Assembly (NCBI GenBank): GCA_002339325.1
Contig: DDKK01000031.1
Coordinates: 22,632-86,631 of the forward strand
DNA from: Nitrospiraceae bacterium UBA2600
GTDB taxonomy: Bacteria; Nitrospirota; Thermodesulfovibrionia; Thermodesulfovibrionales; Thermodesulfovibrionaceae
DNA: 64,000 nt
Direction: 5' to 3'
Position 1 is the stretch's first letter. Each line of letters opens with the position of its first letter. Shown piece after piece: positions 25,541 to 49,924 of this stretch. The notes under the pieces are model-generated. The model was not told the origin of the DNA. It was given only the letters and a program-made list of their open reading frames with translations, and did no database searches. Both the position numbers and the translations under genes were made by a program.

Positions 25541-25621
25541 TGCGAGAGGAGGGATTTGAACCCTCACGGGTCTCCCCACTGGATTCTAAGTCCAGCGCGT
25601 CTGCCGTTCCGCCACTCTCGC
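25541..25621 (-). tRNA. tRNA-Leu(UAG), CCA not encoded
   Basis: GCGAGAG acceptor stem, D loop GGAACGGCAGA, anticodon arm CTGGA-CTTAGAA-TCCAG, long variable arm, T arm GGTTCAAATCC. Confidence 0.95.
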
Positions 25622-37145: not shown

Positions 37146-38066
37146 ATGGCTTACATAGGTGTTGATATAGGAGGGACATACACAAAAATTGGAGTATTAA
37201 CTGAGCAAGGGGAAGTTGTGCGCCTCTGTAAGTTTCCCACTTATGGAGAACCTCTTGAGTTTATATTTGAAGAGATAGACGATATCCTTAATGTTTTTAC
37301 AATCGATGGAATTGGCGTAGGCATAGCAGGACTGGTAGACGAAGAGGGAAATGTAATTAAAGCATCGAATATTCCTTTTTTCAATGATTTTCCGTTGAAA
37401 AAAATATTAGCAGAAAGATACAAGGTAGAGATAGCCGTTCAGAATGATGCCTTTGCTGCAACATTAGCAGAAGCTCTAATAGGCGAGGGCAAAAATTCTA
37501 ATAATTTTATTCTCCTTACTCTTGGCACAGGCATAGGAAGTGGGTATTGGTCAAAAGAACAAAATATGAAATTTCCAATGGAAGCAGGACACATGACGAT
37601 TAATTATCAGGGAAAATCATGCAGTTGTGGTAATACAGGATGTCTGGAAGTTTACGCCTCTGCAAGAGCAATAAAAGATAACTTAATTGAGAAAATTGAA
37701 AAAGGTGAACAGAGTAACATAAAAATGCTTTACGAGGGTAACTTCTATAAAGCAACAGCTGAGGATATTTACAAAACGGCATTAGAAGGAGACCCCTTAT
37801 GCAGAAGCGTTCTCAAAGAAGCTGGCAAGGCACTTGGAGCGGGTGTAGCAAATTTAATAAATATTTTTGGACCTGAACGAATAATTTTCACTGGAGGACT
37901 ATCAAAGGCTGTTAACATTTATATTGAAACAGCCATTTCTGAAGCACAAAAGAGAGCTATGAAAGGACTAAAAACTGAAATGTTTGTTTCTTCGTTAGTA
38001 GATAAAGGTGGAATAATAGGAGCAGTTGCTGCTCTTCCTAATTTTAATTTATGCTCAAGAGCATGA
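37146..38066 (+). CDS. ROK-family sugar kinase (glucokinase-like)
   Basis: [30 protein letters not shown]. Confidence 0.9.
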
Positions 38067-39847
38067 AAAATATCAGAAACTTTTCAATAATAGCCCACAT
38101 AGACCACGGAAAATCAACTCTTGCAGACAGACTGCTTGAATTTACAGGTGCTGTAAATCTTGGGGGAAAAATGGGACAGATTCTTGATTCAATGGATTTA
38201 GAAAGAGAGAGAGGAATAACAATAAAAGCTCATGCAGTAAGACTTACTTATAAAGCTGATGATAACGAAGTATATACTTTGAACTTAATTGATACTCCAG
38301 GACATGTGGATTTTTCCTATGAAGTATCTCGTTCTTTAGCTTGCTGTGAAGGTAGCCTATTGGTTGTCGATGCTACTCAGGGTGTAGAGGCTCAGACCGT
38401 AGCAAATGCATACCTGGCAATAGACCACAATCACGAGATAATTCCAGTAATAAACAAAATAGACCTGCCACAAGCTGACCCAGAACGGGTTAAAAAACAA
38501 ATTGAAGACATCATTGGAATAGACTCATCGGAAGCAATTCTGGCTTCGGCAAAAGAGGGAATCGGAACTAAAGATATTCTTGAGGCAGTGGTAAAGAAAA
38601 TTCCCTCTCCCAAAGGAAACCCAAAAGCTCCTTTAAGAGCGATGATATTTGATTCTTGGTTTGATAATTATCTCGGCGTAATCATTCTTGTGAGAGTCTT
38701 TGACGGAGAGCTGAAAAAGGGAATGCGAATAAAGCTATTCGCTACTGAAAATGAATATGAAGTGCAAAGACTTGGCATTCTTACTCCTCTTCCAAAAGAT
38801 ACAGAGTTTTTATCAGCGGGCGAAGTAGGCTTTATTGTCGCAGGAATTAAAAATATAGCAGATACCAAAATAGGTGACACCGTTACAGAAGCAAACAATG
38901 CTGCTACTGAACCTTTACCAGGATTCAGAGAAGTTAAACCAATGGTTTTCTGTGGCCTTTATCCAACAGAAACACATCAATATGAAGAACTAAAAACAGC
39001 TCTTGAAAAGCTCAGGCTTAATGACTCATCCTTTTTCTTTGAGCCAGAAACATCTGCAGCCCTTGGATTTGGTTTTAGGTGTGGCTTTTTAGGTCTTCTT
39101 CATATGGAAATAATAAAAGAGCGATTAGAAAGAGAGTTTAATCTCTCCCTCATCAGTACTGCTCCTACGGTGAGATATAAAATTATTGAAAAAAGTGGTG
39201 AAGCCTATCTTATTGATAATCCAAGTAAAATGCCTAAATTTTTTGAGAGTATAGAAGAACCTTTCATGAAAGTTTCAATTATAGTGCCTGAAAATTATGT
39301 TGGAGAGATATTGAAGTTATGCCAGGAAAAAAGAGGAATCCAGAAAGAGTTTTCCTACATAACAAAGGACAGAATTCTTCTTGTATACGAAATACCCTTA
39401 AATGAGATTTTATGGGATTTCTATGATAAACTTAAATCACTCTCAAAAGGATATGCTTCTATGGATTATGAGTTCCTCGGATATAGACCGAGTAGTCTTG
39501 TAAAGCTTGATATCCTTATTAATGGCGAACAGGTAGATGCCCTTTCAGTGATTGTCCACAAAGATAAAGCCTATTATAAAGGTCGTGCCATTGCCCAGAA
39601 GTTAAGAGAGGTGATACCCAGACAACTATTTGAGGTAGTAATACAGGCAGCCATAGGTGGTAAAATAATTGCTCGTGAAAGCATTGTTCCACTTAAAAAG
39701 AATGTCCTTGCAAAATGTTATGGCGGTGACGTTACAAGAAAGAAAAAGCTTCTTGAAAAACAAAAGGAAGGTAAAAAAAGAATGAAACAAATTGGCAGAG
39801 TTGAAATACCTCAAGAGGCATTTCTATCAGTTCTGAAAGTAGAGTAA
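38063..39847 (+). CDS. lepA: Elongation factor 4
   Basis: [45 protein letters not shown]. Confidence 0.98.
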
Positions 39848-39857
39848 GGAGGTCAAA

Positions 39858-40463
39858 TTGACAGCAAAAAAAATTCTTGAATATGTAAAGAGCATAGGAA
39901 TCGCAATTCTAATAGCTCTTTTCATAAGGGCATACATAATTCAGGCATTTAAAATTCCATCGGGCTCTATGATTCCAACTCTACTAATTGGAGACCATCT
40001 TCTTGTAACTAAATTCATATATGGCGTAAAGCCTCCTTTCACGGAAAATAAGATTTTAGTAATAGACAAGCCTAAAATAGGAGATATCATAGTTTTTAAA
40101 TATCCTGAAGACCCAAGTAGAGATTTCATAAAGAGAGTAATAGCAGTAGGAGGTGATACAGTAGAGATTAAAAATAAAAAAGTTTTTGTAAATGGCATAG
40201 AACTCAAAGAATCATATGCGAGATATACTGACGCCTACATGCATCCATCCGAATTAGACCCGAGAGACAATTTAGGTCCGATAAAAGTGCCTGAAGGTAA
40301 ACTCTTTGTAATGGGAGACAACAGAGACCACAGCTATGACAGCCGTTTCTGGGGATTCGTAGACCTTAAAGATGTAAGAGGAAAGGCTTTGATAATATAC
40401 TGGTCTTGGGATAGCGAAAAGAGTAAACCAAGACTGGAAAGAATTGGTAAACTAATAAAGTAA
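39858..40463 (+). CDS. lepB: Signal peptidase I
   Basis: IPSGSMIPTL, FIKRVI, GDNRDHSYDSR. Confidence 0.96.
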   Translation: MTAKKILEYVKSIGIAILIALFIRAYIIQAFKIPSGSMIPTLLIGDHLLVTKFIYGVKPPFTENKILVIDKPKIGDIIVFKYPEDPSRDFIKRVIAVGGDTVEIKNKKVFVNGIELKESYARYTDAYMHPSELDPRDNLGPIKVPEGKLFVMGDNRDHSYDSRFWGFVDLKDVRGKALIIYWSWDSEKSKPRLERIGKLIK

Positions 40464-41113
40464 TGTTTACAGGAATAATAGTTGAGCTTGGCGAAGTTTA
40501 CGATATTAAAAAACTTGGCAATTCAGCCAAATTAAATATTCTTTCTGAAAAAGTCATAAAAGATGCTTCAATCGGTGACAGCATATCCGTAAACGGTGTT
40601 TGTCTCACTGTAACAGAAATTGAAAGAAAAAGAGGAATAATATCCTTTGATGTGTCTAACGAGACCCTTCAGAAAACCACTACAGGAGAATTAAAAAAAA
40701 GTTCTCCCGTAAACCTTGAACCAGCACTTACCCTTAATACCAGAATTGGCGGACATTTAGTGAGTGGCCATGTAGAGGGAATTGGAAAGATAAGAAACAT
40801 TGACACAATTGGTGATTATCTAAAAATAGAAATCGAAGCTCCTCAGGAGATTCTTAAATATTGCATAAAAAAAGGTTCGATAGCAATTGATGGAATTAGT
40901 CTTACCATAGTTGAAGTATTCTCCGATGCCTTTAATGTAGTTATCATTCCTCACACAGCTAAAATGACTACCGTAGGCTATAAAAAAGTCGGAGATAGCG
41001 TAAACCTTGAACCTGACTTAATAGCTAAATATGTGGAGAAATTTCTAAGTTACCGAGAACAAACAGCAGATGAAAAAATAATGGCTAAATTGAAAAAACA
41101 CGGATTTATTTGA
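40463..41113 (+). CDS. ribE: Riboflavin synthase (alpha chain)
   Basis: MFTGII, SISVNGVCLTV, VNLE, GGHLVSGH, KGSIAIDGISLT. Confidence 0.95.
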   Translation: MFTGIIVELGEVYDIKKLGNSAKLNILSEKVIKDASIGDSISVNGVCLTVTEIERKRGIISFDVSNETLQKTTTGELKKSSPVNLEPALTLNTRIGGHLVSGHVEGIGKIRNIDTIGDYLKIEIEAPQEILKYCIKKGSIAIDGISLTIVEVFSDAFNVVIIPHTAKMTTVGYKKVGDSVNLEPDLIAKYVEKFLSYREQTADEKIMAKLKKHGFI

Positions 41114-41131
41114 AAAATTTTCCATTAATAG

Positions 41132-42358
41132 ATGAAGAATAGTATTAGATTTTTAATAGAAAGAGTGAATATTTACCTAAAGCTTAAATATCCTATACTT
41201 TCGCTCTTTTTTCATAAAATATTTATAATATTTATATCGATTTTAATTGTTATTTTTATTTTTTTTACTTTTGCAATAGATTTTCAAGGTATATTAAGTA
41301 ATTTTTTTGCTTCCTTTTTGTATAGTTTTTTTATTTTTATAATTCTTATTCTAATTATCACTTTTAAATCAATCTCTTATACTAAGCCAATAGGTATAAA
41401 TTCAAAAAATTCAATTTTATCAATTAAGGAATATCAGTATTTTTTAGATTTAACTAACTTAAAAATAGAAAAGATAGAATTTGACATTGAAAATATTACC
41501 AAAATAAAACAATTAGACGATTTTTTATACGTCAAAACCTTTATAGATTTCCTCCCTTTTGATAAAAAAGAACTTTTTATGATAGAAGCTGGAAATCTTG
41601 ATATTCCAAAATTAACTTTAGAGTCTATAAATATTTCTAATGGGAATTGTCTTAAATTAAAGGTATCAAGTTGCTCTTTTTTTTGCATTTACTACACTCA
41701 TTACTTCGCTGATTATATTTTTTCATCTTCTTCAAATATGGAGAATACAAAAGAAGAAAATACCCTTAAAAACCTTATAGGCAGGAATGTATCAAAAATT
41801 TTATTAGATAATATTGTTAACTTCTCAAAAAACAAAAATTTTTCTTTACCATCTTTATTACCAAATCCACTTGGAATTACTGGAATTATTCAAATTGGAG
41901 ACAAATATATAATAAGAAAAAGGAATAAAAGAGTAATTTCTGAAATGGATACTTACGATTGGTCATTCTCTGGGCTAATAGATTCTCATGATTTTTTATA
42001 TGAATACTATTCTGGCATTAAAGTAATTGATATATTAAAAATAATTGAAAAAGAAATAATAGATGAGCTTAATTTACCTATAAAATTTGAAAATTTAAAT
42101 GATTATATTATTGGTATTCTTCCATTAGGAATAGTATTTAATGAAAAATATCTTTATCAACCCGAGTTAATATTATATTTAAATTTAAAAGAAAAGATTC
42201 TAAATTATCTTGACTTTAAAGAATTAAGTATTAAATTATATTCAATTGAAGAAATAAAAATAAATATATTTAAAGAGTATGAAATAGGAAATAAAAAAAT
42301 AAAAAATTTATTTGTAATTAGTTTTGAATTATTAAATAATTTTCTAAAAAATAAGTAA
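41132..42358 (+). CDS. Very AT-rich hypothetical protein, two N-terminal TM helices + Nudix-like domain
   Basis: 408-aa uninterrupted ORF; two hydrophobic segments; PNPLGITGII..IIRKR..WSFSGLID..KEIIDELNL..QPE resembles a divergent Nudix fold. Confidence 0.6.
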   Translation: MKNSIRFLIERVNIYLKLKYPILSLFFHKIFIIFISILIVIFIFFTFAIDFQGILSNFFASFLYSFFIFIILILIITFKSISYTKPIGINSKNSILSIKEYQYFLDLTNLKIEKIEFDIENITKIKQLDDFLYVKTFIDFLPFDKKELFMIEAGNLDIPKLTLESINISNGNCLKLKVSSCSFFCIYYTHYFADYIFSSSSNMENTKEENTLKNLIGRNVSKILLDNIVNFSKNKNFSLPSLLPNPLGITGIIQIGDKYIIRKRNKRVISEMDTYDWSFSGLIDSHDFLYEYYSGIKVIDILKIIEKEIIDELNLPIKFENLNDYIIGILPLGIVFNEKYLYQPELILYLNLKEKILNYLDFKELSIKLYSIEEIKINIFKEYEIGNKKIKNLFVISFELLNNFLKNK

Positions 42359-42432
42359 TTAGTTGGACAATTATTTCAATTTTTTAAAGGCTTGTGATAT
42401 ACTTAAAAACTTTTATTTATTTGAGGTGCTAT

Positions 42433-44679
42433 ATGAAAAAAATAAATATTATTCTCGTTTTTTTATTCCTTTTTTTTACAACTAATCTATACTCTCAAGA
42501 ACTACCTATTGTCACTTCAATTGAAATTAAAGGACTTAAACGAATTGAAGAAGCAGCGGTAAAAAATAAAATATCTCTTAAACTTGGGGAAACTATCTCG
42601 CAGGATAAGATTTCAGAAGACATAAAGGCTATTTACAAAATGGGTTATTTTGAAGATGTAAAGGTTGACATAGAACCATTTGAAGGGGGCGTTAAGGTAA
42701 TTTACTCTGTGAAAGAAAAGCCCACAATTGTAAAAGTAAGTTTTGAGGGAAATAAAGAGTATGACGAAGAAAAATTAAAAGAGGTTGTAACAATTACAGC
42801 AGGGTCTATAGCAGATGTAACACTCATAAATGATAATGCTCTAAGATTAAAGTCTTTTTATGAATCTGAAGGTTATTATTTCGCTAAAGTAATACCTGTT
42901 TTAAAGAAGAAAACCGATGAAGAAGTTGAATTAACTTATGTTATTGAAGAAAACAACAAGGTGAAAATAAAAGAGATTAAGTTTACTGGTAATAAGGCCA
43001 TATCCAGCAGTAAAATTAAAAAAGTCATGTCAACAACAGAGAGAAAGTTCTATTCTTTCATAACGGGAAGCGGTTTTTATAAAAAAATAGAGATGTTACA
43101 GGATATTGAAAAAATAAAAGACCTATATTACGACAATGGATATTTGAAAGTGTCTGTAGGTGAACCAAAGCTCGAATTTTCTTCAGACAAAAAATGGATG
43201 ACCATAACAATACCAATTTCAGAGGGGCCTCAATTTAAAGTAAGCTCTCTTAAGGTAACGGGAACAAAAGACAAAAAGGAAGAAGAGGATATAAAACAGT
43301 TAATCAAACTAAAAGCTGGAGATATCTTCAGTAAAGGAAAAATGAGAAAGGATATTGAAGCAATTACCTCCTACTACTCTGACAGAGGATATGCTCTTGC
43401 CTCTGTATCGCCAGATGTAATTCCTAATGAAGAAAAAATAACCGCTGAGGTTATATACAACATTAAAACAGGAGACAAATTTACAATTGGAAGAGTTAAC
43501 ATAGCAGGTAATACAAAAACTATAGACAAAGTCATAAGAAGAGAAGTAAGGCTTGACGAAGGAGAAGAATACTCAGCCTCAAAGATAAACAAGAGCAAGA
43601 AGAGACTTGAAGACCTTCAGTACTTTGAAACCGTTGATATAAACCAGAAACCAGACCCAGACAAAAAAACCGTAGACCTTGATGTAACCGTTAAGGAAAA
43701 GGCCACAGGATTCTTAACAGTCGGCGGAGGATACAGTTCAATAGACAATCTTATAGGAATGGTTGACGTAACCCAAACAAATCTTTTCGGCAGAGGTTAT
43801 TCTCTAACTCTCAGAGGTGAACTCGGAGGAAAAAGCTCTTACTACACAATTGCCTTCCGAGACCCCTGGTTCATGGATAAGCCACTTCTTTTTGGATTTA
43901 ATATTTACAGACAAAAAAGAGAGTATACAAACTATACAAAAGACGGTACTGGCTTGGCTATAACATTCGGAAAAAGATATGGAGAAGACTGGTCTGCATC
44001 GGTAACCTATGAAATTGAAAAATCAAAAGTTACAGACGTAGCAACCGATGCTGATACGATAATAAAGGATATGGAAGGCAATTTAATAACCAGTTCAGTG
44101 ACTTTCCAAATAGTAAACGACACCAGAGACAGCTATATTGACCCCTCAAAAGGAAGAAGGCATTCATTAAGCATTACAACAGCAGGGCTTGGTGGAGACA
44201 CTGGTTTTTGGAAAAGTATGCTCGATATGGGCTGGTACATACCAGTCTTTGAAGAATCCACCCTTCACTTAAGAGGAAGAATTGGTTGGTCCGATACTCT
44301 TTTTGGAAAGAAATATCCTCTTTATGAGAGATTCTATATTGGTGGTCTCGATACAATCAGAGGGCTCGGATATGGAGAGGCTGGACCAAAGGATAGTAAA
44401 AATGACCCGATTGGAGCTAAAAAAGCAATAATTGGAAACATAGAATACCTATTCCCTATAGTCACGGAGATGAAGCTTAAGGGGTTGATATTCTTTGACA
44501 TAGGAAAGGGTTACGATGAAGGAGAAAAGTTTGGTTCAAACATTAAGTATTCAACGGGCTTTGGCTTTAGATGGTTCTCTCCTATGGGACCAATAAAAAT
44601 TGACTACGGAATCAATCTAAACAGAAAAGAGGGTGAGTCGAAATCAAAAATTGAGTTTGGGTTTGGTTCATTTTTTTAA
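42433..44679 (+). CDS. bamA: Outer membrane protein assembly factor BamA
   Basis: Signal peptide, POTRA repeats, GNTKTIDKVIRRE, IRGL (VRGF variant), C-terminal FGFGSFF; start after GAGGTG SD. Confidence 0.95.
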   Translation: MKKINIILVFLFLFFTTNLYSQELPIVTSIEIKGLKRIEEAAVKNKISLKLGETISQDKISEDIKAIYKMGYFEDVKVDIEPFEGGVKVIYSVKEKPTIVKVSFEGNKEYDEEKLKEVVTITAGSIADVTLINDNALRLKSFYESEGYYFAKVIPVLKKKTDEEVELTYVIEENNKVKIKEIKFTGNKAISSSKIKKVMSTTERKFYSFITGSGFYKKIEMLQDIEKIKDLYYDNGYLKVSVGEPKLEFSSDKKWMTITIPISEGPQFKVSSLKVTGTKDKKEEEDIKQLIKLKAGDIFSKGKMRKDIEAITSYYSDRGYALASVSPDVIPNEEKITAEVIYNIKTGDKFTIGRVNIAGNTKTIDKVIRREVRLDEGEEYSASKINKSKKRLEDLQYFETVDINQKPDPDKKTVDLDVTVKEKATGFLTVGGGYSSIDNLIGMVDVTQTNLFGRGYSLTLRGELGGKSSYYTIAFRDPWFMDKPLLFGFNIYRQKREYTNYTKDGTGLAITFGKRYGEDWSASVTYEIEKSKVTDVATDADTIIKDMEGNLITSSVTFQIVNDTRDSYIDPSKGRRHSLSITTAGLGGDTGFWKSMLDMGWYIPVFEESTLHLRGRIGWSDTLFGKKYPLYERFYIGGLDTIRGLGYGEAGPKDSKNDPIGAKKAIIGNIEYLFPIVTEMKLKGLIFFDIGKGYDEGEKFGSNIKYSTGFGFRWFSPMGPIKIDYGINLNRKEGESKSKIEFGFGSFF

Positions 44680-44705
44680 AATAAAATCAAAACAGGGAGG
44701 ATGTA

Positions 44706-45242
44706 ATGAAGAAGATTTTGTTGTTTTTTCTAATTTTAGGATTTATAATGACATTCTATACTCCTTCATATGCAGAATTGAAAGTTGGAGTTGTCGACCT
44801 TTACAGAGTTTTGAATGAATCCGAAGAAGGCAAAAAAGCAGTCAATGAACTTCAAAGTATGCTTGATTCAAGACAGAAAACTTTAGAGGAAAAACAAAAG
44901 AAAATCCAGACACTTAAAGAAGAATACGACAAAAAAAAGGCAGTTCTAAGTGAAGATGCTCGAAAATCAAAGGAAGAGGAAATAGAGCGTCTCGGTAGAG
45001 AACTTCAGAGAACAGCAGCAGACTATCAGGTTGAACTTCAGAAGAAACAAAATGAAATAACCCAAAGCATGCTTAAAGAAATAAGACAAATTATCAATGA
45101 CTTTGCCCAAAAAGAAGGTTATAACTTGATTTTTGAGAAAGCAGAACAATTAATAATTTACACGACAAAGGAAGTGGATATTACAGATAAAATCATTGCC
45201 CTCTTTAATCAGAAAACCTCTACGCCTAAAGGTAAAAAATGA
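44706..45242 (+). CDS. skp: Periplasmic chaperone Skp/OmpH
   Basis: KVGVVD, coiled-coil body, DITDKII; follows bamA. Confidence 0.88.
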
Positions 45243-46258
45243 AATTATCCGAAATAGCTGAAATTTTTAATGGGAAAATTGAGGGAGACTCTAATATTGA
45301 AATCTCAGGTGTCAGGGGAATAGATGAGGCAGGAGAAGGAGACATAACCTATCTTGCCTCAAATAAAAACTTAGAGAAACTAAAAAATAGCAAAGCTTCT
45401 GCTGTAATTGTAAAAGAAAAAATTGAAAATTTTTCAGGAGCGCAACTAATCGTTGAATTTCCCCAGCTTGTATTTTCAAGACTTCTAAAACTTTTCTATA
45501 TCAAACCCTATCAGTCTTCAGGAATAAGTGATAAAGCCTTTGTCTCGGAGAGCTCTAAAATCAGCCCGAATGTTTCAATCTATCCCTTCTCTTATATTGA
45601 TGACGAGGTGGAGATAGGAGAAAACACTGTCATATACCCTTTTACCTTTATAGGAAGAGGAAGCAAAATTGGAGCTAACTGCATAATATATCCAAATGTA
45701 ACAATACGAGAAGGAACAAAAATAGGAAACAGAGTGATTATTCACTCTGGAGCAGTGATTGGTTCAGATGGTTTTGGCTATATTTTCCACGAAGGAAAGC
45801 ACGAAAAAATTCCACAAATTGGAACAGTTGTGGTGGAAGATGATGTAGAGATTGGCGCAAATACATCCATTGATAGAGCTACAACTGGAGAAACTGTAAT
45901 AGGAAAAGGAACCAAAATAGACAACCTCGTTCAGATAGCTCACAATGTAAAAATCGGACAGAACTGTATATTGGTTGCACAAGTCGGTATAGCTGGAAGT
46001 TCGAAAATTGGAGATGGCTGTATACTGGCAGGACAAGTAGGAATATCAGACCATGTGGAAATCGAAGGAGGAACGATAATAACTGCCCAATCCGGCGTAA
46101 TGCCTGGGAAGGTTGAAAAAGGGATTTTTTCAGGTTCTCCTATAATGCCTCATAGAGAGTGGCTAAAGTCAAATGCTATATTCCAAAAACTTCCAGAACT
46201 TTATAGAAAATTAAAAGAACTGGAGGAGAAAATAAAGAAACTGGAGGAGAAAGAATGA
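45239..46258 (+). CDS. lpxD: LpxD N-acyltransferase
   Basis: Hexapeptide repeats, [21 protein letters not shown]. Confidence 0.96.
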
Positions 46259-46677
46259 TTGATATCAAAGAAATTATGAATTTTCTACCTCACAGATACC
46301 CATTTCTTTTAGTGGACAGAATAGTTGACCTTATTCCTAATGAGAAAATCATTGGTCTAAAAAATGTAACAATTAATGAACCTTTCTTTCAGGGACATTT
46401 TCCGGGTAATCCAGTAATGCCAGGTGTTCTAATTGTTGAGGCCATGGCACAGGTAGCAGGTGTTCTCGCCTTCAAATCGGGCATCGAAGGAAAAGGAGTT
46501 CTTTTCATGAGCATTGAAAAGGTAAAATTTCGCAAGCCTATTGTGCCAGGAGACCAGATAATATTTGAAGTAAGTGTCATGCACAGACGCAGTAATGTCT
46601 GGAAATTTTCCGGTATAGCTAAAGTAGACGAAAAAGTAGTCACAGAAGCAGAATTTACCGCAATGGTAACAAAGTGA
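46255..46677 (+). CDS. fabZ: 3-hydroxyacyl-ACP dehydratase
   Basis: [29 protein letters not shown]. Confidence 0.97.
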
Positions 46678-46688
46678 GGTGATACGTA

Positions 46689-47465
46689 ATGTCAAAAATC
46701 CATAAAACAGCTGTAATTAGTCCAAAAGCAGAAATAGCCGAAGACGTTACCATAGGACCATACTGCATAATAGGTGACAGTGTTAAAATAAAAAGCGGCA
46801 CAAAGCTCATAAGCAATATCCAGATTGAGGGAATTACAGAAATAGGTGAAAACTGCACTATCTTTCCATTTACAACCATAGGCTTTCCGCCTCAGGACCT
46901 CAAATATAAGGGAGAACCTACAGGTGTAAAGATTGGAGATAATAACACCATAAGAGAATATGTAACTATCCACAGAGCCTCTGTATCTGGAGACGGATGG
47001 ACGTCAATCGGAAACAACAACTTCATAATGGCCTATGTCCACATTGCCCATGACTGCAAAATCGGCAATTCGGTTATAATGGCCAATCTTGCAACACTGG
47101 CTGGACATGTTACTGTTGAAGATTTCGCTTTTATAGGAGGTCTTGTAGCAGTTCATCAATTTACAAGAATCGGAGCATATGCAATGGTCGGAGGATTTAG
47201 TGGCATTGGGCAGGACATACCGCCCTATACAATGGCCTCAGGGCCAAGGGCAAAGCTCTATGGTCTTAACACTGTTGGTTTAAAAAGAAGAGGTTTCAGC
47301 GATGAAACCATCAACATTCTCAAAAAAGCCTATAAAATTCTTTTTAGGGACAAAATGTCTCTAAAAGAGGCAATTGAAAAGGTAAAAAAAGAACTTCCTC
47401 AAATCCCAGAGGTAATTCATCTTTTAGATTTCATTGAGGCAAACAAAAGAGGCATATGCAGATAG
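46689..47465 (+). CDS. lpxA: UDP-GlcNAc acyltransferase
   Basis: IHKTA, PQDLKYKGE, IREYVTIHR, HIAHDC, HQF. Confidence 0.97.
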   Translation: MSKIHKTAVISPKAEIAEDVTIGPYCIIGDSVKIKSGTKLISNIQIEGITEIGENCTIFPFTTIGFPPQDLKYKGEPTGVKIGDNNTIREYVTIHRASVSGDGWTSIGNNNFIMAYVHIAHDCKIGNSVIMANLATLAGHVTVEDFAFIGGLVAVHQFTRIGAYAMVGGFSGIGQDIPPYTMASGPRAKLYGLNTVGLKRRGFSDETINILKKAYKILFRDKMSLKEAIEKVKKELPQIPEVIHLLDFIEANKRGICR

Positions 47466-48265
47466 GAATTATTGCAGCACAGGGCCGCCTTCCCGTATTA
47501 ATAGCAAAAGAATTAAAGGAAAAAGGATTTAAGATTGCCACTATAGGACTTGAGCAACTGGCAAGTGATGAGCTTAGAGATGTAAGCGATATTTTTCAGT
47601 CCATAAACATTGGGCAGGCTGGAAAAATAATTGATTTTCTCAAAAAAAACAATATTAAAGAACTCATTCTAACGGGAAAATTCCCTAAAAATCTAATTTT
47701 TCAGAGGGAGAAAATAAAGCCCGACTTAAAAGCAATGAAAATGCTGTTTTCTGCAAGCTTAAGAGGAGACAATGAGTTATTAAAACTTATAGACAAAGAA
47801 CTCCAGAAAGAAGGTATAAAAATAGTAGAAATCGGAAAAATATGTCCTGAATTGCTAACTCCCGAGGGAGTTCTAACGAGAAGAAAGCCCACTAAAGATG
47901 AATGGAGCGACATAGAGTATGGTTTTAAAATAGCAAAAAAAATTGGAGAACTTGATATAGGTCAAACAGTTGTAGTTAAGGAGAAATCTGTAATTGCTGT
48001 AGAGGCAATTGAAGGAACTGATGAAACTATTCTCAGAGCCGGTAAATATGTGAATGATTTTACCGTAGTAAAGACCAGCAAACCTCAGCAGGAATTAAAA
48101 CTTGACCCACCAGTTGCTGGAATGGATACAATAATTATTATGAGAGAAGCTAAAGCTTCCGTATTAGCAGTTGAAGCTGGCAGAAGCCTTTTGGTAGAGA
48201 GAGAGGCATTGGTAAAAAAGGCAAATGAGCTAAATATTGCTGTAGTAGGTGTCAGTCACAGTTGA
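47456..48265 (+). CDS. lpxI: UDP-2,3-diacylglucosamine pyrophosphatase LpxI
   Basis: GIIAAQGRLP, DIGQTVV, AVEAIEGTD, KPQQ...DPP; follows lpxA. Confidence 0.9.
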   Translation: MQIGIIAAQGRLPVLIAKELKEKGFKIATIGLEQLASDELRDVSDIFQSINIGQAGKIIDFLKKNNIKELILTGKFPKNLIFQREKIKPDLKAMKMLFSASLRGDNELLKLIDKELQKEGIKIVEIGKICPELLTPEGVLTRRKPTKDEWSDIEYGFKIAKKIGELDIGQTVVVKEKSVIAVEAIEGTDETILRAGKYVNDFTVVKTSKPQQELKLDPPVAGMDTIIIMREAKASVLAVEAGRSLLVEREALVKKANELNIAVVGVSHS

Positions 48266-49284
48266 ATATATTTGCCAGCATAAATGATTCTCTAAAAACG
48301 GTTCATCGAAATTATCAACTCCTATTCATCCATTTTTTATTTCTTTTTATTGCTTTTTTTGGGCTGTTTTTCATCTTAAGCATTCCCTTAGGAGTTCTCT
48401 TCGTAGTATTTGGAATAGACCTTACAGATATCCTAAAAGGTAGCTTTATTGAAATTGTTCTTTCCTCTCTAAAACTTTTGAAAAAATTTCTTATTTTTGC
48501 AGTCATTTTTCTGTTAACTCTATTCGTTTATCTAATTCTCGTTGCCGGTCTGTGGGTATATATTTTTTCGGGCACTCTTGGTATAATGAGTGCTTATTTA
48601 CAGGAAGGTTTTCCTTTTAAACTCAGAAATTTTCACAGATTTGGCAAAAACTACTTCTGGAAAGTCGGCCTATTCAGCATATTTTCAGCATTGACTTTTA
48701 TTCTAATTACAGGAGTCCTCATTTTTTTAGGAGAAATAACCTCTGAATTTGTAGAGTTAATAGGAAAATACAGCCATGCTCTTTCAACATTTTCCAGCGT
48801 CTTTATACATCTCACCCTGCTAATACTTAGCGTTTTAGCCTTTCTTCTCTGGATAACCTATTCTCTATTTGGTTTTTATGGATTCTTTATAAAAAAATTC
48901 TCTGTTCGAGAGACCATCGTTAGAACAAAAGACATAATTATGAAAAATCCAGCTTCTCTCGGAAGAGCGGGGTTACTATTTGTAATGTACATTCTAATGG
49001 GTGGAGTGCTTCTTTCGATTGGCTCTTTGCTGGCCATTATACCTCATGTAGGAACAATAATGGCAGCAATTTATCAGTTTTTTATTCAATTTGCTCATAT
49101 TTATATCAGTCTTGTTGTCCTTGCAGCATTCTTTTCATACTACATAAACTTTACTAAAGAGAACGAGGAAAGAGAACTTTCTGATAATATCTCTCTCGGA
49201 GAAGCTTCTCTGCAAGAGCCAGTTCCTCGTCAGTCAGAGAACCCACCTCAAAGTCAAATCCCTCCTCCTTCAGAGCCAGCTTAA
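48262..49284 (+). CDS. Hypothetical multi-pass membrane protein
   Basis: About 6-7 hydrophobic segments; GTGA overlap with lpxI. Confidence 0.7.
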   Translation: MNIFASINDSLKTVHRNYQLLFIHFLFLFIAFFGLFFILSIPLGVLFVVFGIDLTDILKGSFIEIVLSSLKLLKKFLIFAVIFLLTLFVYLILVAGLWVYIFSGTLGIMSAYLQEGFPFKLRNFHRFGKNYFWKVGLFSIFSALTFILITGVLIFLGEITSEFVELIGKYSHALSTFSSVFIHLTLLILSVLAFLLWITYSLFGFYGFFIKKFSVRETIVRTKDIIMKNPASLGRAGLLFVMYILMGGVLLSIGSLLAIIPHVGTIMAAIYQFFIQFAHIYISLVVLAAFFSYYINFTKENEERELSDNISLGEASLQEPVPRQSENPPQSQIPPPSEPA

Positions 49285-49924
49285 TATTTCTCTGAAAAAC
49301 CGATATATCAAAGTTGTCACACAACTCTTCTATACCAAAAATCTTATCTGCTTCTGAGGAAGAACTTTTAAAAACTGCTTTTAAAAGTTCTCTGTTCACA
49401 GTTATAGGAATAGTTCCCTGCTGAAGAAATCCGTCAGTCCATCTTTTCTGAGCAGAACCGATGATTTTTATATCTTTAAAACAGATTTCGCCAAAAGATG
49501 AAAGGGCAAAACACAGAGAACTTTTGTTGTAGCTTCTCTTTTCTCTCTTTATTTCAACGGAAATTCCTGTGAGTATAAAGGCCTTAGCGAATATTTGACT
49601 TAACGTTTCATAATTATGAAAAAGATTTCCTCTAAACCGGCCTTCCTTTTTAGCTGAAAAGCTATAGGTTAAGTCATTGTAGTGGAGAATTCCCTTGCCT
49701 CCTGTAGGTCTTCTGACTATGTCTATTTTCATCTGAAGGCAAGATTCGTAGTTAACTTCATCGAGCTTTTGAAACTCACCAAGAGTTATCGCCATTTTTT
49801 CCCATCCGTAGAGTCTCAAAGTAGGTGGCACAACGTCCTTCCTTACAAGGCTGCTTATTGCTTCATCAACTGCCATGTTGAAAAAAGGGTCAAAAGGCTG
49901 GTATTCGATGAGACGAATTAGCAT
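49154..49924 (-). CDS. Lipoate-protein ligase / octanoyltransferase (LplA/LipM family)
   Basis: NMAVDEA, TLRLYGW, VRRPTGG, KIIGSAQ, LQQGTI. Confidence 0.9.
   Translation of the reverse strand: MLIRLIEYQPFDPFFNMAVDEAISSLVRKDVVPPTLRLYGWEKMAITLGEFQKLDEVNYESCLQMKIDIVRRPTGGKGILHYNDLTYSFSAKKEGRFRGNLFHNYETLSQIFAKAFILTGISVEIKREKRSYNKSSLCFALSSFGEICFKDIKIIGSAQKRWTDGFLQQGTIPITVNRELLKAVFKSSSSEADKIFGIEELCDNFDISVFQRNIKLALKEEGFDFEVGSLTDEELALAEKLLRERYYQKVLFPRSL

What the first reader, a model, noticed from the sequence alone, without database searches (positions are those of the whole stretch)
41132..42358. Lone very AT-rich 2TM + Nudix-like gene inserted between ribE and bamA
Seen: hand-counted 60-nt lines have 7-15 G+C (12-25%) versus 25/60 in an ftsH line, yet the 408-codon frame is open. 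It has two TM helices and a degenerate Nudix box (SGLID...KEIIDELNL), and bamA keeps its own TGn-TATACT promoter. Established: TM-Nudix is a known CBASS effector architecture (Cap16), and AT-rich solitary genes are often defence genes. Inference: a horizontally acquired stand-alone antiphage or nucleotide-sensing membrane effector. No cyclase partner is in the window.
Basis: partly seen in the sequence, partly recalled or inferred. Interest (0 to 1): 0.7.

Follow-up and report, generated by a model that had tools for sequence, protein, structure and literature searches.

The report
Membrane-anchored NUDT22-like Nudix accessory gene
This very AT-rich gene in a Thermodesulfovibrio genome encodes a membrane-tethered relative of the human UDP-glucose hydrolase NUDT22; it belongs to a rare, unnamed bacterial family and fills a swappable slot that holds GDP-mannose synthesis genes in related species, so it is a real accessory gene whose proposed antiphage role has no direct support.

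Summary
ORF 41132-42358 is open (408 codons), has 20.5% GC and is the only compositional outlier in the window (z = -5.9). It encodes an N-terminal two-helix membrane hairpin. The soluble part is confidently predicted (pLDDT 91) and matches human NUDT22 (UDP-glucose/galactose hydrolase) across both domains (Foldseek E = 4e-11). Profile comparison supports this (hhalign E = 1.6e-5), and the family's near-invariant E308/D311/E312 align with NUDT22 E189/D192/E193. The family is rare (83 clusters among 1.84 billion representatives) and matches no Pfam, NCBIfam or PADLOC model. It is an accessory cassette: a sister strain (flanks 95-96% identical) has 68 unrelated bp in its place, and five other Thermodesulfovibrio lineages carry manC plus phosphomannomutase there. 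A second lineage carries a 63%-identical copy under purifying selection (dN/dS about 0.23). No cyclase or other conserved partner was found in the 31 family loci compared. Some loci lie in polysaccharide clusters, some in mobile islands and one beside restriction-modification genes. The best reading is a cytoplasm-facing, membrane-tethered nucleotide-sugar diphosphatase. A stand-alone defence effector is not excluded but has no positive support. Membership of CBASS Cap16 is not supported.

The parts
41120..42368 (.). Single-gene cassette, the variable segment between the ribE stop codon and the bamA upstream region
   Evidence: Sister locus L046 aligns at 95.2% up to 41119 and at 96.3% from 42369, with 68 unrelated bp in between. 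More distant relatives resume homology at 42369-42374.
41132..42358 (+). 408-codon gene for a 2TM + NUDT22-like Nudix protein (stop codon included)
   Evidence: ORF. Called at 408 aa in most contigs carrying an identical RibE. 12 homologs in the first search and 83 representative clusters in the profile search. dN/dS 0.23 against the L014 copy.
41216..41275 (+). TM helix 1 (aa 29-48)
   Evidence: Hydropathy and AlphaFold helix. The N-terminal tail carries 5 K/R, which places it in the cytoplasm.
41294..41365 (+). TM helix 2 (aa 55-78)
   Evidence: Hydropathy and AlphaFold helix. The loop between the helices is 6 aa with no K/R, and the segment after TM2 has 4 K/R, so the soluble domains face the cytoplasm.
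41432..41836 (+). N-terminal soluble domain (aa 101-235), the counterpart of the NUDT22 N-terminal domain. It holds the conserved motifs GxLDIPK (aa 154-160, nt 41591-41611) and THYFAD (aa 189-194, nt 41696-41713).
   Evidence: Conservation in alignments A1 and A2. hhalign pairs LDIPK with NUDT22 FDAPK (56-60) and the LGxxSFxD strand with LGLTSYRD. Foldseek alignments span about 320-330 columns of NUDT22.
41837..42355 (+). Nudix-fold domain (aa 236-408). It holds LPNPLGITG (aa 243-251), DWSFSGLID (aa 276-284) and YQPE (aa 342-345).
   Evidence: Foldseek hits to many Nudix hydrolases over about 165-185 columns. Conserved in at least 90% of 56 members: P244, N245, G248, R264, G281, Q343, P344, E345.
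42050..42076 (+). Modified Nudix-box helix KEIIDELNL (aa 307-315). E308, D311 and E312 are the predicted metal-binding acids.
   Evidence: E308, D311 and E312 are conserved in at least 90% of 56 members. They align with NUDT22 E189/D192/E193 in QEICDEVNLP. G281 lies 27 residues upstream rather than the canonical 16.
40463..41113 (+). ribE (riboflavin synthase), the conserved left flank
   Evidence: Pfam Lum_binding. Used as the marker for sister taxa.
42395..42403 (+). Extended -10-like element TGATATACT, 30 nt upstream of the bamA ATG at 42433
   Evidence: Sequence. It lies in the block conserved in all relatives from 42369 onward. It is not experimentally mapped.
42433..44679 (+). bamA, the conserved right flank. 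The start used by gene callers gives 748 aa.
   Evidence: Pfam POTRA and Omp85. Gene calls in L015-L019.

Best explanation
The gene encodes an inner-membrane-tethered enzyme. An N-terminal hairpin of two TM helices anchors a cytoplasm-facing, two-domain catalytic module that is a remote homolog of human NUDT22, a Mg2+-dependent hydrolase that converts UDP-glucose or UDP-galactose into UMP plus hexose-1-phosphate.

Shown:
- The architecture, the fold match, the motif correspondence and the family-wide conservation of the three acidic residues of the Nudix helix.
- The gene is a single-gene accessory cassette, under purifying selection, in a variable slot next to the outer-membrane and lipid A gene cluster.

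Inferred:
- It is catalytically active and cleaves the diphosphate of a nucleoside-diphosphate sugar (UDP-hexose-like) at the cytoplasmic face of the membrane.
- It thereby trims or diverts precursors of envelope glycans (LPS, exopolysaccharide).
- It is probably read through from lepA-lepB-ribE at a low level, since it has no recognisable Shine-Dalgarno sequence and no terminator on either side.
For: Fold: two models (pLDDT 81 and 91) give human NUDT22 as the top six PDB hits (E = 2e-11 and 4e-11, about 320-330 aligned columns covering both domains). Generic Nudix hydrolases follow at about 1e-4.

Sequence: hhalign of the 56-member profile against the verified NUDT22 sequence gives probability 79%, E = 1.6e-5 and 197 columns. 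The paired motifs are LDIPK/FDAPK, LPNPLG/LADPLG and ExxDE(L/V)NLP in both.

Catalytic residues: E308, D311, E312 and E345 are conserved in at least 90% of 56 members.

Topology: the positive-inside rule puts the domain in the cytoplasm.

Context:
- In six bioreactor loci the gene lies between GT2, GT4 and FkbM-methyltransferase genes and UDP-galactopyranose mutase.
- dTDP-sugar epimerase and GDP-mannose dehydratase family hits also occur among the pooled neighbours, though the locus was not identified.
- In Thermodesulfovibrio the same slot otherwise holds manC plus phosphomannomutase, and it abuts bamA-skp-lpxD-fabZ-lpxA-lpxI.

Selection: dN/dS is 0.23 for the soluble part between two lineages.

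NUDT22 chemistry is taken from PMC10101856 and its non-canonical Nudix box from PMC5688067.
Against: There is no biochemical evidence. Substrate cannot be read from fold alone, because Nudix enzymes are notoriously diverse. The hhalign probability is only 79% against a single sequence, and HMMER profile searches of PDB chain sequences do not find NUDT22.

Glycan context is clear in only one lineage group plus the circumstantial Thermodesulfovibrio slot. Most other contexts are unrelated: efflux pumps, peptidases, short-chain dehydrogenases, a mobile island and restriction-modification genes.

One natural population carries a nonsense allele (Q254 to TAA) and a sister strain lacks the gene, so it is dispensable.

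Expression could not be verified.
Confidence: 0.45

Rival explanations
1. It is a stand-alone antiphage (abortive-infection type) membrane effector. The TM hairpin oligomerises and damages the membrane, or the enzyme depletes a nucleotide or nucleotide sugar that phages need, such as UDP-glucose used for DNA glucosylation. It would be triggered directly by infection without a cyclase partner.
For: - The TM + NUDIX architecture exists in the CBASS effector Cap16 (PMC10419184).
- It is a single AT-rich gene in a variable hotspot between core genes, absent from a 95%-identical sister strain.
- Its distribution across phyla is patchy, and its GC is at least 3 points below the host contig in 18 of 31 loci.
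- One lineage sits beside an Eco57I-type methyltransferase and a restriction-enzyme fragment.
- One group sits in an integrase + YagK/YfjJ island.
- A few pooled neighbours hit PADLOC models.
Against: - No PADLOC hit for the protein or for any of 56 members beyond TM-helix noise at E > 1e-3.
- No cyclase or other conserved partner.
- The ten large neighbours tested in the mobile-island group have no PADLOC hits.
- No relative was found on viral contigs, phages or plasmids.
- Most contexts are housekeeping or metabolic.
- The gene has been retained at the same slot under purifying selection in two lineages whose RibE is only 71% identical. That is slow turnover for a defence gene.
- The catalytic acids are nearly invariant, whereas in Cap16 the NUDIX site is reportedly dispensable for toxicity (PMC10419184).
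Confidence: 0.2
2. It is a membrane-tethered pyrophosphatase acting on a lipid-linked or membrane-proximal substrate rather than a soluble nucleotide sugar. Candidates are UDP-2,3-diacylglucosamine (chemistry like LpxH/LpxI/LpxG), undecaprenyl-diphosphate-linked sugars or CDP-diacylglycerol. It could even transfer the sugar-phosphate to a lipid acceptor instead of water.
For: Membrane tethering of an otherwise soluble enzyme type suggests a membrane-associated substrate. The NUDT22 reaction (UDP-sugar to UMP plus sugar-1-P, PMC10101856) is formally the same cleavage as the LpxH step (my own knowledge of lipid A biosynthesis). The gene lies directly upstream of the bamA-skp-lpxD-fabZ-lpxA-lpxI cluster.
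Against: The window already encodes LpxI (47456-48262, Pfam LpxI_N and LpxI_C at E = 1e-32 to 1e-46), so no pathway hole needs filling. A sister strain lacks the gene. Homologs elsewhere are not next to lipid A genes. No precedent for a Nudix-fold phosphoglycosyl transferase was found.
Confidence: 0.12
3. It is a non-catalytic membrane protein that uses the NUDT22-like module only to bind a nucleotide ligand, acting as a sensor, regulator or scaffold.
For: The Nudix box is non-canonical: the G-to-E spacing is 27 rather than 16 residues, the arginine of 'RE' is not conserved, and there is no Pfam NUDIX hit. The Cap16 precedent has a NUDIX site that is dispensable for toxicity (PMC10419184).
Against: NUDT22 itself lacks a conventional box yet is an active hydrolase (PMC5688067, PMC10101856). 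The three acids that align with its box are conserved in at least 90% of 56 diverse members, together with E345. That pattern is hard to explain without catalysis or metal binding.
Confidence: 0.13
4. It is not a real gene but a chance open frame in AT-rich filler DNA.
For: AT-rich sequence has fewer GC-containing codons but many TAA/TAG/TGA opportunities. One gene caller called only 259 aa (P0001). There is no recognisable Shine-Dalgarno sequence.
Against: A 408-codon open frame at 20% GC is highly improbable by chance. There are 83 homolog clusters across phyla with invariant motifs. The predicted fold is confident, with pLDDT 91. dN/dS is well below 1. The N-terminal TM part is conserved in frame in L014.
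Confidence: 0.01

Closest known systems
Human NUDT22 (UDP-glucose/UDP-galactose diphosphatase; PDB 5LF9, 5LOR, 5LOU, 5R50)
   Same: Both have a two-domain architecture, with an N-terminal beta-rich domain followed by a Nudix-fold domain. Both have a modified Nudix box with the same ExxDE(L/V)NLP helix. The LxDPLG/LPNPLG strand and the xDxPK motif are shared. NUDT22 is the best structural match by seven orders of magnitude over other Nudix proteins.
   Different: Sequence identity is only about 15%, and HMMER finds no similarity. This family adds an N-terminal two-TM hairpin of about 100 residues and a long helix (aa 212-234) between the domains. It is bacterial, accessory and laterally mobile. 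Its substrate is unknown.
CBASS effector Cap16 (TM + NUDIX)
   Same: Both combine transmembrane helices with a Nudix-fold domain in a bacterial accessory gene (PMC10419184).
   Different: No CD-NTase or any CBASS component lies next to the 31 family loci compared. There is no match to PADLOC CBASS effector models. The catalytic acids are conserved here. Direct sequence or fold comparison with Cap16 was not possible because no Cap16 sequence was available.
E. coli WcaH/NudD (Gmm), the GDP-mannose mannosyl hydrolase of the colanic-acid cluster
   Same: It is a Nudix-fold enzyme acting on a nucleotide sugar and encoded inside a polysaccharide gene cluster, where it is thought to tune precursor supply. 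This rests on my own knowledge and was not tested here. It is analogous to the GT2/GT4/Glf context of six family loci and to the manC/PMM slot here.
   Different: WcaH is a small soluble single-domain protein with a different, also modified, Nudix box. No specific similarity was detected. It is not among the top fold hits.
LpxH / LpxI / LpxG (UDP-2,3-diacylglucosamine hydrolases)
   Same: They perform formally the same bond cleavage as NUDT22 (UDP-X to UMP plus X-1-phosphate), act at the membrane, and are encoded near lpx genes.
   Different: Their folds are unrelated. LpxI is already present in the window. The gene is dispensable in a sister strain.

Membership tests
Nudix superfamily | Nudix alpha/beta/alpha sandwich fold | tested here: met
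   Foldseek PDB search: 47 and 23 hits at E <= 1e-3 for the two models. All 50 hits listed for each model belong to the Nudix-fold superfamily, one of them being IPP isomerase. BFVD hits are also Nudix proteins.
Nudix superfamily | Canonical Nudix box GX5EX7REUXEEXGU, detectable with Pfam NUDIX (PF00293) | tested here: not met
   No Pfam hit for the protein at E <= 10, or for any of 56 members at E <= 0.01. Only the second half of the box is recognisable (K-E-I-I-D-E-L-N-L). G281 lies 27 residues before E308 instead of 16, and the Arg position is variable.
NUDT22 subfamily | N-terminal domain plus Nudix domain, both alignable | tested here: met
   Foldseek aligns 320-343 columns against chains of 282-301 residues, with TM-score 0.53-0.60 normalised to the target. 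hhalign covers NUDT22 residues 55-276.
NUDT22 subfamily | Modified Nudix box acids (E189, D192, E193 in QEICDEVNLP) | tested here: met
   E308/D311/E312 in KEIIDELNLP align with them and are conserved in at least 90% of 56 members.
NUDT22 subfamily | Statistically significant sequence homology | tested here: inconclusive
   hhalign gives probability 79% and E = 1.6e-5 for profile against a single sequence. BLASTP gives E = 0.011. HMMER profile against PDB finds nothing. A profile-profile test against a NUDT22 family alignment could not be run.
NUDT22 subfamily | Mg2+-dependent UDP-glucose/UDP-galactose hydrolysis | not testable with these tools
   This needs an enzyme assay.
CBASS Cap16 | Encoded in an operon with a CD-NTase cyclase | tested here: not met
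   The window neighbours are lepA, lepB, ribE, bamA, skp, lpxD, fabZ, lpxA and lpxI. No partner is conserved across the 31 family loci compared. No CBASS cyclase model appears in the 25 families listed by the PADLOC scan of 109 neighbours (74 families matched, and single-member hits weaker than about 1e-12 fall below the listing).
CBASS Cap16 | TM helices fused to a Nudix-fold domain | tested here: met
   This is a generic architectural resemblance only.
CBASS Cap16 | Sequence or profile similarity to known Cap16 or CBASS effector models | tested here: inconclusive
   There is no significant PADLOC hit. One member hits the '2TM effector' model at E = 0.006, which is consistent with TM composition. 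No Cap16 sequence was available for direct comparison, and the primary paper is not held.
Defence-island gene (generic) | Recurrent co-localisation with known defence genes | tested here: inconclusive
   Restriction-modification genes are adjacent in L003-L006. A handful of PADLOC hits occur among 109 non-redundant neighbours. Ten neighbours from the mobile-island group gave none. Most contexts are metabolic. The sample of 31 loci is too small, and there is no background, for a statistical test.
UDP-2,3-diacylglucosamine hydrolase analog (LpxH/I/G function) | Fills an otherwise missing step of lipid A synthesis in its genome | tested here: not met
   LpxI is present at 47456-48262, and the gene is absent from a sister strain with the same lpx cluster.

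The most novel reading that the evidence does not exclude
This is a previously unrecognised family of membrane-tethered NUDT22-type enzymes acting as single-gene 'glycan-precursor switches'. By destroying UDP- or GDP-sugars at the membrane they would remodel or switch off a surface glycan, or deprive phages of UDP-glucose. In Thermodesulfovibrio the cassette is an alternative allele to the GDP-mannose synthesis genes manC/manB at the same hotspot. On this reading it would be a new, cyclase-independent, nucleotide-sugar-based mode of phage resistance or surface variation.
Probability: 0.12. Interest if true: 0.75.

Novelty: new variant of a known kind. Interest (0 to 1): 0.45.

Why it matters
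NUDT22 has been treated as an outlier of the human Nudix family with a 'unique' fold. This result shows a rare bacterial family with the same two-domain module welded to a membrane anchor, with no model in Pfam, NCBIfam or PADLOC. That gives a handle on what the NUDT22 module does in its simplest setting and adds a membrane-localised player to nucleotide-sugar metabolism. The three-state hotspot between ribE and bamA (manC+PMM, this gene, or nothing) offers a natural experiment for its effect on the cell envelope. For defence-gene hunting it is a caution: 'AT-rich, solitary, TM + Nudix' looked like a CBASS effector, but the evidence points first to an enzyme of envelope precursor metabolism.

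Tried and rejected
- Direct annotation. Pfam, NCBIfam, PADLOC and PDB sequence searches with the single protein and with profiles found nothing.
- The 'missing LpxH' idea was rejected because LpxI is in the window.
- Transcription evidence. The three metatranscriptomes from the study holding this strain contain no contigs for any gene in 38000-46300, so they are uninformative.
- A second large-database search with the 56-member profile returned no new members on long contigs.
- Viral contigs, phage records and plasmid records hold no relatives.
- The 68-bp filler in the sister strain has no meaningful similarity to the gene, to manC/PMM or to anything else in the window. The direction of the event (deletion or replacement) is therefore not shown by a scar.
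- No manC or PMM homolog was found elsewhere in the 64-kb window. The rest of the genome was not available.
- The primary NUDT22 structure paper and the Cap15/Cap16 paper are not in the held library. NUDT22 residue roles beyond alignment, and Cap16 sequence features, rest on reviews and on my own knowledge.
- Promoter and terminator scans. Promoter-like hits are at chance level and no terminator was found.
Full report
**1. The observation**

The ORF at 41132-42358 (+) is open for 408 codons. Its GC content is 20.5% against 36.6% for the window. Sliding windows of 300 nt fall to 15-26% inside it and return to 32-42% outside. It is the only low-GC stretch in the 64 kb. Against 50 non-overlapping windows of the same length (mean 37.1%, minimum 30.9%) it lies at z = -5.9.

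The bias affects all three codon positions: GC1/2/3 = 0.27/0.20/0.15 against 0.42-0.51/0.24-0.38/0.25-0.34 in the neighbours. It is mirrored in the protein, which is 17% Ile, 13% Leu, 10% Lys, 10% Phe and 8% Asn.

Upstream are a ROK kinase, lepA, lepB and ribE. Downstream are bamA, skp, lpxD, fabZ, lpxA and lpxI. The quoted motifs are at aa 280-284 (SGLID) and 307-315 (KEIIDELNL).

The TGA-TATACT element lies at 42395-42403, 30 nt before the bamA ATG at 42433 that gene callers use. No intrinsic terminator was found between ribE and bamA, and generic promoter-like matches are at chance level.

**2. It is a real gene and a member of a rare, unnamed family**

The protein matches no model in Pfam, NCBIfam or PADLOC, and no PDB chain by sequence.

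A search of 5.8 billion proteins found 12 relatives, none named. An exhaustive profile search of 1.84 billion cluster representatives found only 83, of which 54 score at E <= 1e-30.

Members are about 400-440 aa and share sharp motifs: GxLDIPK, THYFAD, LPNPLGxTG, R-x-R, WSF(S/A)GL, ExxDE and LYQPE. Across 56 diverse members the following are conserved in at least 90%: G154, H190, P244, N245, G248, R264, G281, E308, D311, E312, Q343, P344 and E345.

Nearly all members have two hydrophobic segments near the N-terminus.

One gene caller started the window's gene at Met150, giving the 259-aa P0001. Others aa. The TM part is conserved in frame in a second lineage (48% identity), so the long form is correct.

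**3. What the protein looks like**

AlphaFold2 with the 12-sequence alignment gave pLDDT 81 and pTM 0.78. With the 56-sequence alignment it gave pLDDT 90.9 and pTM 0.89, with identical topology. The model has a long helical hairpin (aa 21-47 and 54-84) followed by two alpha/beta domains.

Foldseek against the PDB gave, for both models, human NUDT22 as the six best hits (E = 2e-11 to 4e-9, 320-343 aligned columns, TM-score 0.53-0.60 normalised to NUDT22). Ordinary single-domain Nudix hydrolases followed at E about 1e-4 over about 165-185 columns. So the fold is Nudix, and more precisely it is the NUDT22 two-domain arrangement.

I recovered the NUDT22 sequence and verified it against chain 5lf9_A. 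hhalign of the family profile against it gave probability 79% and E = 1.6e-5 over 197 columns spanning both domains. The motif pairs are:
- LDIPK with FDAPK (56-60).
- The LGxxSFxD strand with LGLTSYRD.
- LPNPLG with LADPLG (117-122).
- KEIIDELNLP with QEICDEVNLP (188-197).

This places E308/D311/E312 on NUDT22 E189/D192/E193 and E345 on E222.

NUDT22 hydrolyses UDP-glucose to UMP plus glucose-1-phosphate (PMC10101856) and 'lacks a conventional NUDIX box' (PMC5688067). The same is true here: only the REUXEEXGU half is recognisable, and G281 lies 27 rather than 16 residues upstream.

The charge distribution is 5 K/R before TM1, none in the 6-residue loop and 4 K/R after TM2. That predicts an N-in/C-in hairpin, so the catalytic module faces the cytoplasm, where nucleotide sugars are found.

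**4. Evolutionary status: an accessory cassette in a three-state hotspot**

Names attached to RibE homologs identify the organism as a Thermodesulfovibrio.

All 10 displayed contigs that encode an identical RibE (17 were found) carry the gene in the same place, intact where the contig spans it. They come from several independent samples, and runs holding the sequence come from groundwater, oil-field, subsurface, microbial-mat and hot-spring samples. One sample carries a C-to-T change at 41891 that turns Q254 into a stop codon.

The closest sister has RibE 94% identical and flanks 95-96% identical, yet it lacks the gene. The segment 41120-42368 is replaced by 68 unrelated bp.

Five more distant Thermodesulfovibrio lineages (RibE 65-71% identical) carry manC plus a phosphomannomutase in exactly this slot. 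Homology to the window resumes at 42369-42374. The outgroup Dissulfurispira has a different layout.

A second lineage (L014) carries a copy of the gene in the same slot. Its soluble part is 63% identical and its TM part 48% identical, against 71% for RibE. That copy also has 20% GC, against 32% for its ribE. The RibE of L014 is closest (85%) to that of L047, which has manC-PMM.

The gene is therefore patchy within the genus. It is either an old polymorphism with repeated loss or a cassette exchanged between lineages.

dN/dS between the two copies is 0.23 for the soluble part and 0.43 for the TM part, against 0.11 for ribE, with dS near saturation. The gene is functional and long resident, not a recent arrival. 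Its AT-richness is maintained rather than ameliorated.

Outside this genus, relatives occur in Shewanella (two species), Polaromonas, Methylibium, Thalassospira, unclassified Proteobacteria and various metagenomes. Their GC is at least 3 points below that of the host contig in 18 of 31 loci.

**5. Neighbourhoods**

I called ORFs around 31 loci and clustered the neighbours. No partner gene is shared across lineages. The lineage-specific contexts are:
- (a) Six bioreactor loci, where the gene lies between GT2, GT4 and FkbM-methyltransferase genes and UDP-galactopyranose mutase, followed by NDK. dTDP-sugar epimerase and GDP-mannose dehydratase family hits also occur among the pooled neighbours, but I could not assign them to a locus.
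- (b) Seven marine gammaproteobacterial loci, including Shewanella olleyana, with an integrase, a YagK/YfjJ-like protein, PEP-CTERM proteins, a bPH_2 protein and conserved unknowns. This is a mobile island.
- (c) High-GC loci with a convergent short-chain dehydrogenase and, in one, a 4HBT thioesterase.
- (d) One lineage next to an Eco57I-type methyltransferase and a BsuBI/PstI restriction-enzyme fragment.
- (e) Assorted housekeeping genes: AcrB/HlyD, M16 peptidases, a cation-efflux protein and a radical-SAM protein.

Among 109 non-redundant neighbours, a minority hit PADLOC models: type II methyltransferase, mad2/3/8, PDC-S14, a type IV restriction enzyme and helicase-type models. Ten large neighbours from the mobile-island group hit none. 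No relative was found on viral contigs, phage genomes or plasmids.

**6. Interpretation**

What is shown: this is a membrane-anchored, cytoplasm-facing, two-domain NUDT22-like protein with conserved metal-binding acids. It is encoded by a dispensable but selectively maintained single-gene cassette in a variable slot.

What is inferred: it hydrolyses a nucleoside-diphosphate sugar at the membrane and so influences envelope glycan precursor supply. Three observations favour this:
- The specific match to a UDP-hexose hydrolase.
- The polysaccharide-cluster context of one lineage group.
- In Thermodesulfovibrio, the alternative occupant of the slot is the GDP-mannose pathway, right beside the outer-membrane and lipid A cluster.

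Low GC is also typical of surface-polysaccharide genes (my own knowledge), so AT-richness does not point specifically to defence.

The defence reading stays alive because of the hotspot behaviour, the patchy distribution, the mobile-island and restriction-modification contexts, and the Cap16 precedent (PMC10419184). It has no positive support from PADLOC, from partner genes or from consistent defence-island association.

Membership of CBASS Cap16 fails the operon criterion. I could not test similarity to Cap16 itself.

The idea that the gene supplies a missing LpxH-type step is rejected, because LpxI is present and the sister strain does without the gene.

**7. Verdict**

The family is a new variant of a known kind: a membrane-tethered bacterial branch of the NUDT22 type of Nudix enzyme, currently without any family model or name. 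Interest is moderate. Function is unproven, but the hotspot with three alternative states and the clean catalytic-site conservation make it directly testable.

Noticed in passing
window 41891 (L021, sample DRR873022): One public assembly of the same strain carries C-to-T at 41891, turning Q254 (CAA) into TAA and splitting the gene into 253-aa and 137-aa calls. This is either a natural loss-of-function allele or an assembly error.
   Followed up: partly
L014 about 960-990 (SRR27730018 contig): The 63%-identical copy in the second lineage has a frameshift between the TM part and the soluble part, at a run of eight T. It may be a Logan assembly error, a pseudogene or slippage. The window's gene also has two T8 runs (41259, 41677).
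   Followed up: partly
window 42394 vs 42433: The mechanical ORF list starts bamA at GTG 42394 (761 aa), inside the promoter-like element. Gene callers use ATG 42433 (748 aa), which is preceded by GAGGTG. The latter is the credible start.
   Followed up: yes
window 48262-49284 (+): The 340-aa ORF directly after lpxI, where lpxB would be expected, has no Pfam hit at E <= 1e-5. Its end overlaps a reverse-strand lipoate-protein ligase gene (49154-49924).
   Followed up: no
GCA_017880035.1 (L015 and L049): The same NCBI assembly holds two contigs (759 kb and 1.9 Mb) whose RibE proteins are only 67% identical and whose ribE-bamA slots differ (this gene versus manC+PMM). The 'genome' is therefore a mixture of at least two Thermodesulfovibrio species.
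   Followed up: partly
L050 5690-7011 (Dissulfurispira thermophila AP022873.1): In the outgroup, ribE is followed on the opposite strand by a metallo-beta-lactamase-fold protein that also hits the Anti-Pycsar Apyc1 family, and then by a GAF-domain protein. This was noted only from the precomputed Pfam list.
   Followed up: no
L013, L038, L040, L042-L045: The marine gammaproteobacterial copies travel with a conserved set of unknown small genes (proteins of about 205, 78, 147 and 87 aa), plus a YagK/YfjJ-like protein and, in L013, an integrase. This is an uncharacterised mobile island whose other cargo has no Pfam or PADLOC match.
   Followed up: partly
window 25541-25621 (-): A single tRNA gene is the only Rfam match at gathering threshold in the window.
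   Followed up: no
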